Shown here one piece after another: positions 1,830 through 6,175 of a DNA stretch of 64,000 nucleotides. Source of the stretch: Myxococcales bacterium (GTDB lineage Bacteria; Myxococcota_A; Polyangia; Polyangiales; Ga0077539); NCBI GenBank assembly GCA_030652255.1, contig JAUSAZ010000005.1:6685-70684 (forward strand). Direction: 5' to 3'. The position numbers and the translations under genes are program-made. Positions within the stretch are counted from its first letter, which is position 1. Each line of letters begins with the position of its first letter. The notes beneath the pieces are model-generated. The model was given only the letters and a program-made list of their open reading frames with translations. It ran no database searches and had not been told where the DNA came from.

Positions 1830-2381
1830 ATGTCGGACGCAAACGCGATCATCGACCTCGACCTGACGGTTCTGGCCCAGGAGACCGAGTTGAGCGCCCC
1901 TGTCGTCCAGGCGATCGCGCTCGCCGCCAGCGTTGTCCTCGACCGCCTCCACCCCTCCCGGGCGATCGACCCGGCTCGGGTCGTCCAGGGATCCTCCGAG
2001 CGCCTCGCCACCGTGCGGCGCGTGCCCGTCGACGCGCAGGCCCGGGATTCCTACGGCGACCCGCAGGAGGCTACCGAGGAGGGCGCCGAAGGCCTCGCGA
2101 TCGCGGCCGCCCGCAAGGCGCTCGATCGCATCGTCTTCCGGCGGCTCCCGAAGGGGACCGGCGCCGATTACCTCATGCGCGACCCCGCGGCGAACGACGG
2201 CGACGCCTACGAGCGGTTGGAGTGCAGCGGCATCGCTGAGGGGAGCGAGTCGGCCGGCACGCGGATGCGGGAGAAGCTGGCGCAATTGGCGAAGGTTCCG
2301 AACCAGCCCGCGGGGTTCGCGGCGGTGACAGACTTCCGCCCCGAGGTCGTCGCTGTTCACCTGGCGCGGTGTTCCCGATGA
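1830..2381 (+). CDS. Hypothetical protein, putative PD-(D/E)xK restriction-endonuclease-like fold
   Basis: 183 aa with ATEEGAEG (E83), GTGADY (D113), RLECSG (E131) and RMREKLAQ (K149), the order expected for this catalytic core; ATGA overlap with the next gene. Fold call is by recall. Confidence 0.6.
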   Translation: MSDANAIIDLDLTVLAQETELSAPVVQAIALAASVVLDRLHPSRAIDPARVVQGSSERLATVRRVPVDAQARDSYGDPQEATEEGAEGLAIAAARKALDRIVFRRLPKGTGADYLMRDPAANDGDAYERLECSGIAEGSESAGTRMREKLAQLAKVPNQPAGFAAVTDFRPEVVAVHLARCSR

Positions 2382-2800
2382 ACGAATGGATGCGAGACCC
2401 GCGGGTGGCGCAGGCCGAGACCGACGCCTTCCAGGCGGAGCGGGCCGAGCGGCGCGGCAACCCCAGCCAGGCACGCGCGCTCTACCGACAGGCGGCAGAG
2501 TCGCTGGCGTGCGTCGCGCTGCGGGTTCCGGCGGACCACCCCAATACGCGCGGAGACCTCGCGATCGCCGCGGTGGCGAGCTTCTCCCGGGCGGGTGACT
2601 TCGGCCGGGCGATCGAGTTCGGGCAACGGATGCTGGCCGAGGGTGACGCGCTCACGGCACACGGCCGTGACGAGATCCGACGCCTGGTGCACGAGTACGA
2701 GCTGATCGCTGCGCCGGGCGACGTGCCGGTGTTGCCGATGAACAACCGCGGCCGGGCGGTGCGTGATCAGGTCCGGGGAATGTTCCGGAGGGCCGCGTGA
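2378..2800 (+). CDS. Small all-helical (TPR-like) hypothetical protein
   Basis: 140 aa Ala-rich amphipathic helices (ARALYRQAAESLA, DLAIAAVASFSRAGDFGRAIEF); ATGA and GTGA overlaps on either side. Confidence 0.75.
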   Translation: MNEWMRDPRVAQAETDAFQAERAERRGNPSQARALYRQAAESLACVALRVPADHPNTRGDLAIAAVASFSRAGDFGRAIEFGQRMLAEGDALTAHGRDEIRRLVHEYELIAAPGDVPVLPMNNRGRAVRDQVRGMFRRAA

Positions 2801-4284
2801 CCCGCGCGGTGCCGACCGGCGACCTGGGCCTCGACCTCCTGCTCGGCGGCGGATGGAAGCTGGTGGAGCGCCTGCCCGAGCGGCACTCGACCACCGTGGT
2901 GGTGCGCGGCGGTCCAGGCGCGGGCAAGACGCTGCTGGCGATCCAGGTGGCGCTGGCGCTGGCCGAGGCGCTCGGCGGCGACGTCGCGGTGGGATGCGTC
3001 GAGATCCTCCCGAGCGAATACCTCGCGCAGCTTCAGTCGGCGCGGGCGGACATCGAGCGGGCGCGCATCGTGGTGCTGCCCGAGGCGGCATCGCCTTCGC
3101 CATTACCGCGGGTGTTCTGCGGGTTGCTGACCGACCTCGACCCGGCCGCCCCGGACCTCGTGGCGAGCCTGGAATCGCTCGGTCGGGACGTGGTCGCCGC
3201 GGGCGGGAACCCCGCCGTCTACGTCGTGGACTCGCTGATCGAGGGCTATGGCATCGGCGAGTCCGCGCCGCGGGCGAGCGCCGACGCCGCGATGAAGTTC
3301 GCGGTGCAGGGGGGGCGCGGCCTCGTGCTGTGCGAGGAGACCCGCAGCGAGGCCGCGACGACGTGGGTGTTCGCCGCGGACACGGTGCTGGAGCTGGGCG
3401 TCGCCTCCCGCGAACGCGGTCGTTGGATCGAGGTGCGCAAGCACCGCTTCGCGGCCTCGGTCTCTGGGCGTCACGAGCTGGAGATCCGTCGGCAGGGCGC
3501 GCCGGCGGTGTACCCACAGACCCACGCGTGGGTGACCGACCACTCGCACGAGGTGTTGCGAGCGCATGGGTGGCGCTACGCGAACTCGCGAAGAACTATG
3601 GCATTGGGGTGGCATCCGTCGTCGGTCCCCGGGGAAGACGGAGGGTTCGGGGCACGGCAGCTTGAAGGGACCTTCGTCTTGATCACCAGCCCCATCGCGG
3701 ACCTGGCCCGGAGGCTGGCGTTTCGTCTGCTGCCCGGCCAGGGCGCGAGCCACTCCGCACATGACCTGTTCTTCGAGCTAGATCCCTTGATGCTCGGCGA
3801 AGTGGATGCGAGCTCTGCATCGACATCCGTCGAACCCATCCCGACGATCCGCGGCGCGACCCGTGCTTTGCGTTGGTTCATCGAGGTCTGCACGACGAGG
3901 TTCACCGAGACCGGAGAGAAGTCACGGGCGCTGATCCGCCGTGTGATCCTGGGGGATGTTCGCCTCGTCCTGGCCTCTCCAGACGCATTGGAATGGGTCG
4001 AGGCGATCCGGGTCTTTGCGAGTCTGGTGGCCGAGGCTGGGTGGGCCACACCTGTCATCGTCTTCGAAACGCAGGCAGACACCGACTCATCCACCAATGC
4101 GAGCGCGATCCTGGCCCGTTACAGCGACCTCCAGCTCCACGCCTATCGCAATGAGCCCACGGGCACGGTCGTGACTCTCACCGGGCGCGGGCGCCGCAAC
4201 CCGCGGAGGCTGACCTGGCAGTCACGCCTCGACGACACGCCCCTGCCCGCCGACCTGGCGGCGCTCGACCGCTCGGCGCCCTGA
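2797..4284 (+). CDS. KaiC/RAD55-like RecA-fold ATPase with a degenerate second domain
   Basis: PTGDLGLDLLLGGG, Walker A GGPGAGKT, Walker B VYVVDSL and RWIEVRKHR in the N-half; the C-half has no Walker A. Confidence 0.85.
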   Translation: MTRAVPTGDLGLDLLLGGGWKLVERLPERHSTTVVVRGGPGAGKTLLAIQVALALAEALGGDVAVGCVEILPSEYLAQLQSARADIERARIVVLPEAASPSPLPRVFCGLLTDLDPAAPDLVASLESLGRDVVAAGGNPAVYVVDSLIEGYGIGESAPRASADAAMKFAVQGGRGLVLCEETRSEAATTWVFAADTVLELGVASRERGRWIEVRKHRFAASVSGRHELEIRRQGAPAVYPQTHAWVTDHSHEVLRAHGWRYANSRRTMALGWHPSSVPGEDGGFGARQLEGTFVLITSPIADLARRLAFRLLPGQGASHSAHDLFFELDPLMLGEVDASSASTSVEPIPTIRGATRALRWFIEVCTTRFTETGEKSRALIRRVILGDVRLVLASPDALEWVEAIRVFASLVAEAGWATPVIVFETQADTDSSTNASAILARYSDLQLHAYRNEPTGTVVTLTGRGRRNPRRLTWQSRLDDTPLPADLAALDRSAP

Positions 4285-4558: not shown

Positions 4559-5170
4559 TCAGAGCGCGGAGGGCAGGCCCCCGGCCATCAGCGCCTGCGC
4601 GTCGGTGTTGGCGGCGAGCGCGGCGACGATCACCGGGTGGGCGTCGGGCTCGTTGCGGAGGTAGTCCACCTCGCCGAGGGCGGGGCGGATGGGGAAGGCC
4701 AGGGCCTCGGCGCCGAGCGAGAAGCGGGCGTCGACGCCGGGGCGGTTGCCGCGGGCGTCGAAGCGGATCCATCGACCGAGCGGGCTGAGGTAGACGGTGT
4801 TGAGCGCGTGCACGACGTGCCCCGCGGAGGCGTCGTCGTCGCGCAGCGTGAGGCGCTGGTAGCAGACGCCCGCGGGCACGCCGGCGCGGCGCAGCAGGGC
4901 GGCGGCGAGGTGGCTCTTGGCGTAGCAGAGGCCCTCGCGGTGGCGCAGCACCTCCGAGGCGACGCAGGTGACGCGGCGGCCCTGCGCGTCCCACGAGTGG
5001 CGCACCTCGTCGCGCACGAAGACGAACACCGCCTCGGCGAGGGCCACCGGGTCGAGGCCGCGGAGGCGCGCGTCGACGAAGGCCGCGATGTCGGGGGCGT
5101 CGGCGTCGATGACCGCCGTGGCCGCGAGGTAGCGCTCGATGGGGTGGGCGGTGCGAAGGGCGTCGGACAT
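4559..5170 (-). CDS. Transglutaminase-like family protein
   Basis: EGLCYAKSHLAAALLR (catalytic Cys), HALN and WIRFDARGN give a Cys-His-Asp triad; ATG at 5170. Confidence 0.9.
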   Translation of the reverse strand: MSDALRTAHPIERYLAATAVIDADAPDIAAFVDARLRGLDPVALAEAVFVFVRDEVRHSWDAQGRRVTCVASEVLRHREGLCYAKSHLAAALLRRAGVPAGVCYQRLTLRDDDASAGHVVHALNTVYLSPLGRWIRFDARGNRPGVDARFSLGAEALAFPIRPALGEVDYLRNEPDAHPVIVAALAANTDAQALMAGGLPSAL

Positions 5171-5245
5171 CGCTGGGGGACCGACGGTACAACGCCCCCG
5201 CGGTGTGGCGTTGACGGATCTCCGGCGTCGGAGGGAGTGTGCGCC

Positions 5246-6175
5246 GTGACCTCCTCCGCCCGCATGCTGGCCTTCGTCTTCGCGGCGCTCTCGTGCCGCT
5301 CGTCTGCTACGTCCGCGGTCGACGACGACCCGCGGTACCTCTGCCGCGTCGACGTGGCGCCCCTGCGCGCCGCACTGCGCGCCGCGGGCGGCGACCCCGC
5401 GCGCATCCTGCAGCCCACCACCGCGGCGGGGCTGCTCGCGCTCACGAGCGGGCACCGGCACAAGTTCGTCCTCAACGAGAACGGGATGTTCGTGGTCGCG
5501 CCGCTGCCCGCGGACGCGGCGCACAACGAGTACGTGCACCCGATCCTCGGTGACGGCGCGCCGGTGCGCGGCGCCGGGGGGATGACGGTGGTGCACGTCG
5601 ACGGCCGCGTGACGCGGGTGGTGCTCGACGCGGAGAGCTTCTCGTACTGCACCGCCACGGAGAGCCTGCGGCCGTCGGTGCGCGCGCTCCAGGCGATGGG
5701 CATCCCGGCGGAGGCGATCGTGGTCGAGGCGCGGCCGCTCGCGTGCGCGGGGGCGGGCGCGGCGCCGAAGCGCTACGGCGCGGTGATGGTCGGCGTGGGG
5801 CGGCGCTTCGAGACGCTGGGGCGGGCGCTCGCGGCGGGCCGGTGGGAGCTCGCGGACTACGAGATGGAGGAGCTCGCCGAGGACGTGGACGAGCTGCCGG
5901 GCGCGGCGGCGCCGCCGTCGGTGCGCGTCGACCTCGTGCCCACGGCGCGGGCGTTTCCGACGACATACCTGGCGCCGCTGGCGGCGGCGGTGGCGCGGCG
6001 CGACGCGGCGGCGGCGACGGCGGCCTACGGGGTGGCCGCGGGCGGGTGCTACGGCTGCCACCAGGCGGCGGGCAAGGTCGGGATCATGGTGTCGCCGACG
6101 CCGGGCGACGGGGTGCCGTGGATCACGCCAGCGGCGACGGCGGGCGATGGGGGCGTCGGGGGCGACGCGCGGTGA
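5246..6175 (+). CDS. Secreted two-domain protein: unknown N-domain plus C-terminal cytochrome c (c'-like) domain
   Basis: GGAGGGAG RBS before GTG 5246; hydrophobic leader ending LSC; CYGCH heme motif at 6047-6061 at the end of a helical domain. Confidence 0.7.
   Translation: MTSSARMLAFVFAALSCRSSATSAVDDDPRYLCRVDVAPLRAALRAAGGDPARILQPTTAAGLLALTSGHRHKFVLNENGMFVVAPLPADAAHNEYVHPILGDGAPVRGAGGMTVVHVDGRVTRVVLDAESFSYCTATESLRPSVRALQAMGIPAEAIVVEARPLACAGAGAAPKRYGAVMVGVGRRFETLGRALAAGRWELADYEMEELAEDVDELPGAAAPPSVRVDLVPTARAFPTTYLAPLAAAVARRDAAAATAAYGVAAGGCYGCHQAAGKVGIMVSPTPGDGVPWITPAATAGDGGVGGDAR

What the first reader, a model, noticed from the sequence alone, without database searches (positions are those of the whole stretch)
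1830..4284. Candidate novel defence/conflict operon: nuclease-like + helical + KaiC-like ATPase
Seen: three genes coupled by ATGA (2378-2381) and GTGA (2797-2800) overlaps, set among unrelated genes, with patches of lower GC. Gene 1 has an E83...D113...E131xS...K149 pattern, gene 2 is a 140 aa helical protein, gene 3 is a RecA-fold ATPase with one intact and one dead module. Established: nuclease plus NTPase is the core design of many anti-phage systems. Inference: the ATPase senses, the helical protein adapts or inhibits, and gene 1 is the effector. I recognise no named system with this composition.
Basis: partly seen in the sequence, partly recalled or inferred. Interest (0 to 1): 0.8.

Follow-up and report, generated by a model that had tools for sequence, protein, structure and literature searches.

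The report
KaiC-like ATPase toxin–adaptor conflict cassette
Three tightly coupled genes (a nuclease-like protein, a small helical partner and a KaiC-fold ATPase) form a rare, unnamed, self-contained cassette whose first gene is replaced in other bacteria by a known toxin domain. It therefore looks like an undescribed ATP-controlled toxin/defence module, though its function has not been tested.

Summary
The three + strand genes are g1 1830-2381, g2 2378-2800 and g3 2797-4284. They are joined by ATGA and GTGA overlaps, sit among unrelated genes, and have slightly lower GC than their surroundings.

- **g3** is a double RecA-domain KaiC-fold ATPase. Its first domain is intact and its second has no P-loop (Foldseek to KaiC E 6e-19).
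- **g1** belongs to a large unannotated family of at least 1416 representative clusters. They sit on an alpha-beta-beta-beta-alpha-beta core. The only structural neighbours are PD-(D/E)xK nucleases, and none of those matches is significant.
- **The cassette** recurs in 19 loci (Myxococcota, Acidobacteriota), and the flanks differ wherever I compared them.
- **The first-gene slot is swapped.** Acidobacterial cassettes carry a gene whose roughly 50%-identical relatives pass Pfam's Tse2 ADP-ribosyltransferase toxin model. Two further loci carry other unknown proteins.
- **The middle proteins** differ in body but share a C-terminal basic helix, R..hR..h. It is present in 18 of 19 ATPase-linked copies and in 0 of 59 copies without the ATPase.

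No PADLOC, Pfam or literature match names this system. My best reading is a toxin plus antitoxin/adaptor pair plugged into an ATP-driven KaiC/GvpD-like switch. Anti-phage function, nuclease activity and the direction of control are inferred, not shown.

The parts
1830..2381 (+). g1: 183-aa predicted effector/toxin. It has an N-terminal subdomain (res 8-63) and a PD-(D/E)xK-like alpha-beta-beta-beta-alpha-beta core (res 78-181). E83 lies in helix 1, D113 before strand 2, E131-x-S133 in strand 3, and R145/K149 in helix 2.
   Evidence: ORF and GC3. 64 homologues. Conserved residues. AF2 pLDDT 95.2 and secondary-structure order. Weak Foldseek hits are almost all PD-(D/E)xK nucleases, and none is significant. 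HMM search finds 1416 representative clusters.
2378..2800 (+). g2: 140-aa helical, TPR-like partner of g1. Predicted to be an antitoxin/immunity protein and an adaptor to g3.
   Evidence: ATGA overlap. Weak TPR hits. Conserved directly downstream of g1 in all variant-A loci. Profile match to the partner protein of the wider g1 family: hhalign 57%, E 1e-4.
2753..2797 (+). C-terminal basic tail of g2 (R126-A140, RAVRDQVRGMFRRAA). Proposed docking element for g3.
   Evidence: R129 and R133 are present in at least 90% of the variant A and B middle proteins aligned. Motif R..[VIALTM]R..[hydrophobic] occurs in 18/19 g3-linked middle proteins against 0/59 partners without g3.
2787..2791 (+). GGAGG ribosome-binding site for g3, inside g2 codons R137-R138.
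   Evidence: Read directly from the sequence.
2797..4284 (+). g3: 495-aa double-domain KaiC-fold ATPase.
   Evidence: 86 homologues. AF2 pLDDT 89.1, pTM 0.90. Foldseek to full-length KaiC: E 6e-19, TM about 0.6, about 520 columns. Pfam KaiC 26.3 bits for this protein (cut-off 26.6) and 38.7 bits for relative L020.
2797..3531 (+). g3 N-domain (res 1-245): the active RecA/KaiC-CI-like module. Walker A GGPGAGKT is at 2908-2931; E69, D145, E180/E181, R209, K215, R217 and H226 are conserved.
   Evidence: Invariant columns in 40 sequences. Mean identity to the window protein is 65%.
3667..4206 (+). g3 C-domain (res about 291-470): RecA-like fold without a P-loop. It evolves fast and has lower GC. 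Candidate specificity/sensor surface.
   Evidence: No GK[ST] motif. The fold aligns to KaiC CII. Mean identity 33% against 65% for the N-domain; GC 0.665.

Best explanation
The locus is a three-component toxin / antitoxin-adaptor / ATPase conflict module. g1 is the toxic effector, most likely a divergent metal-dependent PD-(D/E)xK-type nuclease. g2 is its cognate neutralising partner: the TPR-like body holds g1, and its C-terminal basic helix docks onto g3. g3 is a KaiC/GvpD-type ATPase, probably a ring, that uses ATP binding and hydrolysis in its N-domain as a switch. On some trigger, possibly read by the fast-evolving degenerate C-domain, it captures, remodels or destabilises g2 through the tail. 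That frees g1 and causes growth arrest or cell death (abortive infection or stress-triggered dormancy). Shown: the gene anatomy, the folds of g1 and g3, cassette conservation, swapping of the first gene, and the ATPase-specific tail. Inferred: toxicity of g1, neutralisation by g2, tail-g3 binding, the direction of control, and the trigger.
For: (1) The exact three-gene unit recurs in 19 loci, and the flanks differ in every locus compared. (2) The first gene is displaced while g3 is kept. Six acidobacterial loci carry a 133-163 aa protein whose roughly 50%-identical relatives pass Pfam's gathering score for PF18648, Tse2 ADP-ribosyltransferase toxin (best 41.4 bits, E 2.7e-10). L017 and L019 carry two further unrelated proteins. 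On an NJ tree of g3, the A-type effector is found on both sides of the B, C and D types, which implies at least three displacements. Effector displacement in a preserved operon is a stated hallmark of conflict systems (PMC7159879). [quoted passage not shown] The cassette's toxin-then-small-partner order fits that pairing. (4) The tail motif is present in 18/19 g3-linked middle proteins of three different body types, and in 0/59 homologous partners that lack g3. (5) g3 keeps every catalytic motif of the first KaiC-type domain, and its second domain is degenerate and fast-evolving. (6) Precedent: GvpD, a P-loop ATPase of the KaiC/GvpD group, binds the small helical GvpE and makes it almost undetectable. 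A repression-defective GvpD mutant fails to do so (PMC4390858). (7) g1 has invariant D/E/K residues on an alpha-beta-beta-beta-alpha-beta core, and about 44 of the top 50 PDB Foldseek hits are PD-(D/E)xK or EndA-fold nucleases. (8) g1-type plus partner pairs lie on a conjugative Anabaena plasmid and beside an integrase on a Leptolyngbya plasmid.
Against: There is no experimental datum for any of the three families. No Foldseek match of g1 is significant (best E 0.03-0.04, TM at most 0.37), and the canonical Lys of (D/E)xK is a Ser. One relative (L016) has Gln at E83. The acidobacterial first-gene proteins themselves did not score on the Tse2 model; only their relatives did. The cassette is not in recognisable defence islands, and g3 has no match in the phage or plasmid collections. 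In L001-L004 it sits among housekeeping genes. g2 homology to the wider partner family is only moderate (hhalign 57%). The tail motif was defined after seeing the data. All g3 loci come from MAGs or metagenomes, and only 12 of 185,579 species genomes were hit by a two-pattern scan.
Confidence: 0.55

Rival explanations
1. Same three parts, but control runs the other way. g3 is a protective chaperone-like factor that binds the g2 tail and keeps the antitoxin folded or shielded from proteases, as SecB does in tripartite toxin-antitoxin-chaperone (TAC) systems. Loss or ATP-starvation of g3 then releases the toxin. The unit works mainly as an addiction/stabilisation module.
For: An ATPase-specific C-terminal extension on the middle protein resembles the chaperone-addiction extension of TAC antitoxins (from my own knowledge). 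14/19 g3-linked and 3/3 ART-linked middle proteins end in Ala-Ala, which could be a protease degron needing protection (ssrA-like; from memory, untested). g1-type pairs occur on plasmids.
Against: The one documented KaiC/GvpD-group precedent removes its partner rather than protecting it. g3 has no SecB-like fold. The cassettes are chromosomal and are not on the plasmids searched.
Confidence: 0.2
2. The first two genes are an interbacterial effector-immunity pair delivered by a type VI or contractile injection system encoded elsewhere. g3 is a loading or unfolding ATPase for the effector.
For: Tse2 is a T6SS substrate in Pseudomonas. One ATPase-less ART cassette (L024) lies about 4 kb from a phage-sheath-type gene.
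Against: No secretion, PAAR, VgrG, Hcp or adaptor genes flank any of the g3 loci examined. The effectors are short stand-alone proteins without trafficking domains, and all 150 listed g1-family hits are about 70-265 aa. The conserved tail is on the immunity-like protein, not on the effector.
Confidence: 0.08
3. A housekeeping DNA repair or recombination module: a RecA/RadA-like ATPase working with a structure-specific nuclease and an accessory protein.
For: g3 is in the RecA superfamily, with weak RadB, RadA and DnaB hits. g1 looks nuclease-like. The L001-L004 neighbours include dinB, ligA and a TfoX-like gene.
Against: The distribution is sporadic and rare. Flanks are unrelated everywhere. 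The nuclease slot can be filled by an ADP-ribosyltransferase toxin type. The second ATPase domain is degenerate and evolves fast.
Confidence: 0.05
4. The cassette is real, but g1 is not a nuclease. It uses its conserved D/E/R/K residues for another chemistry (for example nucleotide or NAD-derived substrate cleavage) or for binding only.
For: There is no significant fold or profile match. The motif is E-x-S instead of E-x-K. An extra N-terminal subdomain is present.
Against: The secondary-structure order and the placement of E83, D113, E131 and K149 fit the PD-(D/E)xK template. The weak hits in two independent structure libraries are almost all nucleases of that fold.
Confidence: 0.25

Closest known systems
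KaiC (cyanobacterial clock ATPase) and KaiC-like double-domain RecA-superfamily ATPases
   Same: Two tandem RecA-like domains, and full-length structural alignment (Foldseek E 6e-19, TM about 0.6). The N-domain has Walker A, a catalytic Glu about 25 residues after the Lys, and Walker B. KaiC binds small partner proteins according to its nucleotide state (my own knowledge).
   Different: The second domain has lost its P-loop, so it cannot be a CII-type ATP-binding autokinase module. No kaiA or kaiB is present. Sequence identity is only 13-16%. The window protein is 0.3 bits below the Pfam KaiC cut-off. The operon partners are a toxin-like protein and a tailed helical protein.
GvpD-GvpE of haloarchaeal gas-vesicle regulation
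   Same: A KaiC/GvpD-group P-loop ATPase binds a small helical protein and lowers its amount, which requires a functional GvpD (PMC4390858). This is the functional analogy I use for g3 acting on g2.
   Different: The similarity to GvpD is very weak (GvpD_P-loop E 0.041). GvpE is a transcription activator, not an antitoxin, and no toxin is involved.
Tse2-Tsi2 toxin-immunity pair
   Same: In six cassettes the first gene belongs to a family whose members pass the Tse2 ADP-ribosyltransferase toxin model, followed by a small helical protein.
   Different: The window's own first gene is not an ART. The cassette proteins have no T6SS context. A third ATPase gene and an ATPase-specific tail on the immunity-like protein are added.
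Tripartite toxin-antitoxin-chaperone (TAC) systems
   Same: Three co-transcribed genes. The middle, antitoxin-like protein carries a C-terminal extension that is specific to the third component.
   Different: The third component is a KaiC-fold ATPase, not an ATP-independent SecB-like chaperone. The gene order is toxin first. The toxin families differ.
NTPase-plus-effector anti-phage systems in general (PADLOC/DefenseFinder catalogue)
   Same: The general design of an NTPase, an adaptor and an exchangeable effector, with a patchy distribution.
   Different: No protein of the cassette or of its variants hits any PADLOC-DB v2 model beyond P-loop noise. I found no described defence system built on a KaiC-fold ATPase.

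Membership tests
KaiC family (Pfam PF06745; double RecA-like ATPase) | Passes the curated Pfam gathering score | tested here: inconclusive
   The window g3 scores 26.3 bits against a cut-off of 26.6, on the N-terminal 65 residues only. Cassette relative L020 scores 38.7 bits over the whole model. Several homologues carry a precomputed PF06745 hit.
KaiC family (Pfam PF06745; double RecA-like ATPase) | Two tandem RecA-like domains with the KaiC fold | tested here: met
   The AF2 model (pLDDT 89.1) aligns to full-length KaiC chains over about 520 columns, E 6e-19, TM 0.55-0.6.
KaiC family (Pfam PF06745; double RecA-like ATPase) | Walker A, Walker B and catalytic Glu in the first domain | tested here: met
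   G38, G39, G41, G43, K44 (T45 in at least 90%), E69, D145, E180 and E181 are invariant in 40 sequences.
KaiC family (Pfam PF06745; double RecA-like ATPase) | Second domain also binds ATP (CII-type kinase module), with kaiB/kaiA partners | tested here: not met
   There is no GK[ST] motif in residues 291-470 in any homologue. No kai genes are among the neighbours. It has the KaiC fold but is not a clock KaiC.
PD-(D/E)xK (restriction-endonuclease-like) nuclease superfamily, for g1 | alpha-beta-beta-beta-alpha-beta core | tested here: met
   AF2 (pLDDT 95.2): H78-98, E101-105, E114-117, E127-135, H142-154, E162-168.
PD-(D/E)xK (restriction-endonuclease-like) nuclease superfamily, for g1 | Acidic residue at the start of strand 2 and a (D/E)-x-K in strand 3, often with a Glu in helix 1 | tested here: inconclusive
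   D113 and E131 are invariant and E83 is present in at least 90%. The K position is S133, and an invariant K149 sits in the next helix. I could not inspect the spatial arrangement because no coordinates were available.
PD-(D/E)xK (restriction-endonuclease-like) nuclease superfamily, for g1 | Significant sequence-profile or structural match to a known member | tested here: not met
   No Pfam, NCBIfam, PHROG or PADLOC hit. PDB profile search gave nothing. Best Foldseek E is 0.044 (PDB) and 0.028 (BFVD), although the weak hits are dominated by this fold.
PD-(D/E)xK (restriction-endonuclease-like) nuclease superfamily, for g1 | Metal-dependent nuclease activity | not testable with these tools
   Needs purified protein and D113A/E131A/K149A controls.
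Toxin-antitoxin / toxin-immunity module | Adjacent, translationally coupled small genes that travel together | tested here: met
   4-nt overlaps. g1-type plus partner pairs appear in most of the 80 metagenome loci that have room downstream, and on plasmids.
Toxin-antitoxin / toxin-immunity module | One partner belongs to a recognised toxin family | tested here: inconclusive
   Relatives of the variant-B first gene pass the Tse2 ART model PF18648, but the cassette copies themselves did not score. The window's g1 is assigned only by its equivalent position and its nuclease-like features.
Toxin-antitoxin / toxin-immunity module | Toxicity of one gene, neutralised by the other | not testable with these tools
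   Needs expression experiments.
Catalogued anti-phage defence systems (PADLOC-DB v2.0.0) | Match to a system's marker HMMs | tested here: not met
   There are only P-loop-level hits with E of at least 0.027 for g3. Nothing was found for g1, g2, the ART variant or the wider-family partners.
Tripartite toxin-antitoxin-chaperone (TAC) | SecB-like chaperone as the third gene | tested here: not met
   The third gene has the KaiC fold.

The most novel reading that the evidence does not exclude
A previously undescribed class of immune or abortive-infection systems is built on a KaiC-fold ATPase. A short, portable basic C-terminal helix lets unrelated toxin-immunity pairs (a new PD-(D/E)xK-like nuclease family, Tse2-type ADP-ribosyltransferases and others) plug into one ATP-driven switch. 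The degenerate, fast-evolving second domain of that switch senses infection. The same analysis would also define a new, very large two-gene toxin-partner family (at least 1400 representative clusters) that has no annotation at all.
Probability: 0.3. Interest if true: 0.8.

Novelty: new variant of a known kind. Interest (0 to 1): 0.68.

Why it matters
If confirmed, this would add a KaiC-type ATPase to the motors known to control bacterial toxins. It would also show a simple, transferable peptide tail that couples different toxin-immunity pairs to one regulator. That is directly testable by tail swaps and by Walker A or tail-deletion mutants. It would give a first functional handle on a large unannotated protein family (g1-like, at least 1416 representative clusters) and its TPR-like partners. 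It would extend the biology of KaiC-like proteins beyond clocks and archaeal signalling.

Tried and rejected
- **Family scans.** Pfam, NCBIfam, PADLOC and PHROGs scans of the three proteins gave no usable family for g1 or g2, and only sub-threshold KaiC/P-loop hits for g3.
- **PDB sequence profiles.** The g1 profile gave nothing. The g3 profile gave only a weak PH0284 KaiC-like hit (E 0.009).
- **g3 in plasmid and phage collections.** tblastn found no match.
- **Regulatory and mobility signals.** There is no sigma-70-like promoter, no convincing terminator and no flanking repeats around the cassette, so there is no sign of a transposon or att site.
- **A fourth conserved gene.** The ORFs upstream of g1 in the window, L107 and L109 are unrelated to each other.
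- **L018.** This is a frameshifted nanopore contig, so I discarded it.
- **Metagenome scan with the broad alignment A6.** I repeated it with subgroup A7.
- **Literature searches.** KaiC with anti-phage, defence, Tse2 or toxin-antitoxin terms found no description of such a system. The eLife NTP-dependent conflict-system survey does not mention KaiC.
Full report
**1. The observation**

The window is GC-rich (about 0.74). On the + strand, ORFs run 1830-2381 (183 aa, g1), 2378-2800 (140 aa, g2) and 2797-4284 (495 aa, g3).
- I read the junctions directly. The g1 stop and g2 start form ATGA at 2378-2381. The g2 stop and g3 start form GTGA at 2797-2800. A GGAGG ribosome-binding site lies at 2787-2791.
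- All three have coding-type third-position GC of 0.86-0.90, a little below the neighbours at 0.92-0.99.
- The lower-GC patch is real and maps to the second half of g3: 0.645-0.675 in the profile, and 0.665 against 0.740 for the whole window.
- The neighbours are unrelated: an FAD-binding fragment, an unknown divergent ORF, a transglutaminase-like gene, glyS, UbiA, a carotenoid protein and a penicillin amidase.
- No promoter, terminator or flanking repeat of note was found.

**2. The ATPase, g3**

Forty homologues share invariant residues G38, G39, G41, G43, K44 (Walker A), E69, D145/S146 (Walker B), E180/E181, R209, K215, R217 and H226. All of these lie in residues 1-245. The second half has no GK[ST] motif.
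- An AlphaFold2 model (pLDDT 89.1, pTM 0.90) aligns over about 520 columns to full-length KaiC, with E 6e-19 and TM about 0.6.
- By sequence it is marginal for Pfam KaiC: 26.3 bits against a cut-off of 26.6. A cassette relative passes at 38.7 bits.
- The N-domain is 65% identical on average to the homologues. The C-domain is only 33% identical.

**3. The first gene, g1**

No library recognises g1.
- Its AF2 model is very confident (pLDDT 95.2). It shows an N-terminal subdomain followed by helix 78-98, strands 101-105, 114-117 and 127-135, helix 142-154 and strand 162-168. This is the order of the PD-(D/E)xK core.
In 43 diverse relatives, G111, D113, E131, G134, R145 and K149 are invariant. E83, R105 and S133 are present in at least 90%.
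- Foldseek finds nothing significant in the PDB or BFVD (best E 0.044 and 0.028).
- Even so, the weak lists are dominated by nucleases of this fold. The PDB hits include tRNA-splicing endonuclease, Cas4/ACE1, AdnAB, HincII, DdmD, SPARDA and MGME1. The BFVD hits include phage RecE, RecB, YqaJ and VRR-NUC types.
- I read this as a divergent restriction-endonuclease-like enzyme in which Ser replaces the strand-3 Lys and a helix Lys may substitute for it. This is suggested, not proven.
- An exhaustive profile search shows the family is large and consists of stand-alone proteins. There are 1416 representative clusters at E up to 1e-3, and all 150 listed hits are about 70-265 aa.

**4. Co-occurrence**

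Homologue lists for g1 and g3 share many contig lengths.
- Fetching loci shows g1-g2-g3 intact in Myxococcota contigs: L001-L007, L010, L014, L016, L020, L107-L109.
- The flanks differ in every locus compared. They are TfoX/ThiC, T2SS ATPase, peptidase M13 with cupredoxin-RND, and protein kinase with VWA.
- The ORFs just upstream of g1 in the window, L107 and L109 are unrelated to one another.
- The conserved unit is therefore exactly three genes.
- Only 12 of 185,579 species genomes were hit by the pattern scan. g3 has no relative in the plasmid or phage collections.

**5. The key result: the first gene is exchangeable**

Six loci keep a clear g3 homologue: L008, L009, L011-L013 and L015. Five are labelled Acidobacteriota and L009 is labelled Alphaproteobacteria. 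None has a g1 or g2 detectable by tblastn. Upstream they carry two other small genes.
- The first is 133-163 aa, with motifs FRAMTP, GTGGMSVSP, HRRPRGMGRG and HAFVEP.
- These cassette proteins did not score on any Pfam model themselves. Relatives about 50% identical to them do pass Pfam's gathering score for PF18648, Tse2 ADP-ribosyltransferase toxin (41.4 bits, E 2.7e-10, and four others).
- Tse2 is a growth-arresting toxin. The small cytoplasmic immunity protein Tsi2 neutralises it by occluding its active site (PMC6099711).
- Two more loci have yet other first genes: L017 (161 aa) and L019 (253 aa).
- On a neighbour-joining tree of g3 N-domains, the ART clade is sister to the main g1-type clade. 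The g1-type loci L016 and L020 branch deep with L017 and L019. At least three displacements therefore occurred.
- Repeated effector displacement in a preserved operon is a recognised signature of conflict systems (PMC7159879).

**6. The middle gene and its tail**

The middle proteins differ between variants: 140 aa and TPR-like in variant A, 83-102 aa in B, and 242 aa in D. Nearly all end in a basic helix, for example VRDQVRGMFRRAA, VRQNVRAQFRRAA and RRNWRLAA.
- The motif R..[VIALTM]R..[hydrophobic] in the last 25 residues is present in 18 of 19 g3-linked middle proteins.
- It is present in 0 of 4 homologous partners from ATPase-less ART or plasmid cassettes, and in 0 of 55 partners of the wider g1 family.
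- The motif extends well beyond the ribosome-binding site, and it persists where the genes do not overlap. It is therefore a protein-level feature.
- I infer that it is the docking element for g3. The motif was defined after seeing the data.

**7. The g1-g2 pair is an autonomous module**

I fetched eighty metagenome loci with g1-family genes (hhalign to g1 99.9%, E 2.5e-34).
- None has g3.
- Where sequence was available downstream, most have a gene overlapping the g1 stop by 4 nt. It encodes either a protein of about 130 aa or one of about 375 aa.
- The N-terminal helical domain of these proteins (EPTRSVLHRSAA...AERLI) matches g2 moderately: hhalign 57%, E 1e-4, 81 columns.
- None has a Pfam or PADLOC match.
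- Such pairs lie on the conjugative plasmid pANACY.01 of Anabaena cylindrica PCC 7122 (WP_015217606.1/WP_015217607.1), and beside an integrase on a Leptolyngbya boryana plasmid. Both are annotated as hypothetical.
- Likewise, the Tse2-like gene with a g2'-like partner also occurs with a 137-aa all-beta third gene instead of the ATPase.
- g3 is therefore an add-on that attaches to at least two different toxin-partner pairs.

**8. Mechanism**

My best reading has confidence 0.55.
- g1 is the toxin.
- g2 neutralises g1 and links it to g3 through the tail.
- g3 is an ATP-driven switch that acts on g2 to release g1.
- The documented behaviour of GvpD supports this direction. GvpD is a KaiC/GvpD-group P-loop ATPase that binds the small helical GvpE and makes it nearly undetectable, and this requires a functional GvpD (PMC4390858).
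- The opposite direction, with g3 as a protective TAC-like chaperone, is the main rival (0.2).
- Interbacterial delivery (0.08) and housekeeping repair (0.05) fit the data poorly.
- Anti-phage function is plausible but untested. The loci are not in recognisable defence islands.

**9. Novelty**

No PADLOC model, Pfam family or paper in the searchable library describes this combination. It fits the known theme of an NTPase, an adaptor and an exchangeable effector. The motor (KaiC fold), the portable tail and the g1 family all appear to be undescribed. I rate it a new variant of a known kind, with interest 0.68.

Noticed in passing
L009:886-1309: The Tse2-like first gene of this cassette is split into two overlapping frames (886-1227 and 983-1309). 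This is either a frameshift that inactivates the toxin or an assembly error. The contig is labelled Alphaproteobacteria, but its cassette groups with the acidobacterial ones.
   Followed up: no
L020:2046-3968: This g3 homologue is 640 aa. Its extra C-terminal stretch of about 150 residues contains GSGALVMRG...DDLDLFV, which resembles a minimal nucleotidyltransferase motif. Pfam found no match for that part. In L019 the divergent neighbour has a weak NTP_transf_5 hit.
   Followed up: partly
L021:5001-6327; L022:1586-2741; L024:5001-6132: These are Tse2-like ART plus g2'-like partner cassettes in which the KaiC-like ATPase is replaced by an unannotated protein of about 137 aa (weak phrog_12462 hit). 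In L024 the cassette sits next to a PLD-SNF2 helicase and an HNH_2 gene, and about 4 kb from a phage-sheath-type gene.
   Followed up: partly
L025-L104 (e.g. L028:4516-5661, L062:4510-5622): The wider g1 family is usually paired with a partner of about 375 aa. Its C-terminal region of about 250 residues has no family match. This large two-gene module is entirely unannotated and deserves study of its own.
   Followed up: partly
C-termini of the middle proteins (window 2792-2797 and the equivalent positions in L005, L008-L016, L019-L024, L107, L109): 14 of 19 ATPase-linked and 3 of 3 ART-linked middle proteins end in Ala-Ala. This recalls ssrA-type C-terminal protease degrons (from memory). It may instead reflect the stop/start overlap context, because several loci without an overlap lack it.
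   Followed up: partly
window:3667-4206: The degenerate C-domain of g3 is both the lowest-GC stretch of the region (0.665 against 0.74) and the fastest-evolving part of the protein (33% against 65% mean identity).
   Followed up: yes
window:4559-6175: Two long ORFs overlap on opposite strands (4559-6061 on the minus strand, 4637-6175 on the plus strand). Only the 3' part of the minus-strand ORF (4559-5182) matches a family (Transglut_core). The plus-strand part 5291-6175 has no match. This is probably the usual high-GC ORF inflation, so the true gene boundaries are unclear.
   Followed up: partly
window:493-1305 (- strand): A divergent 270-aa ORF with coding-type GC3 has no family match. It is not conserved next to the cassette in other loci.
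   Followed up: yes
L016:6901-7458: The g1 homologue of this deep-branching cassette has Gln at the position of E83 but keeps D113, E131, R145 and K149. The helix-1 Glu may therefore not be essential.
   Followed up: no
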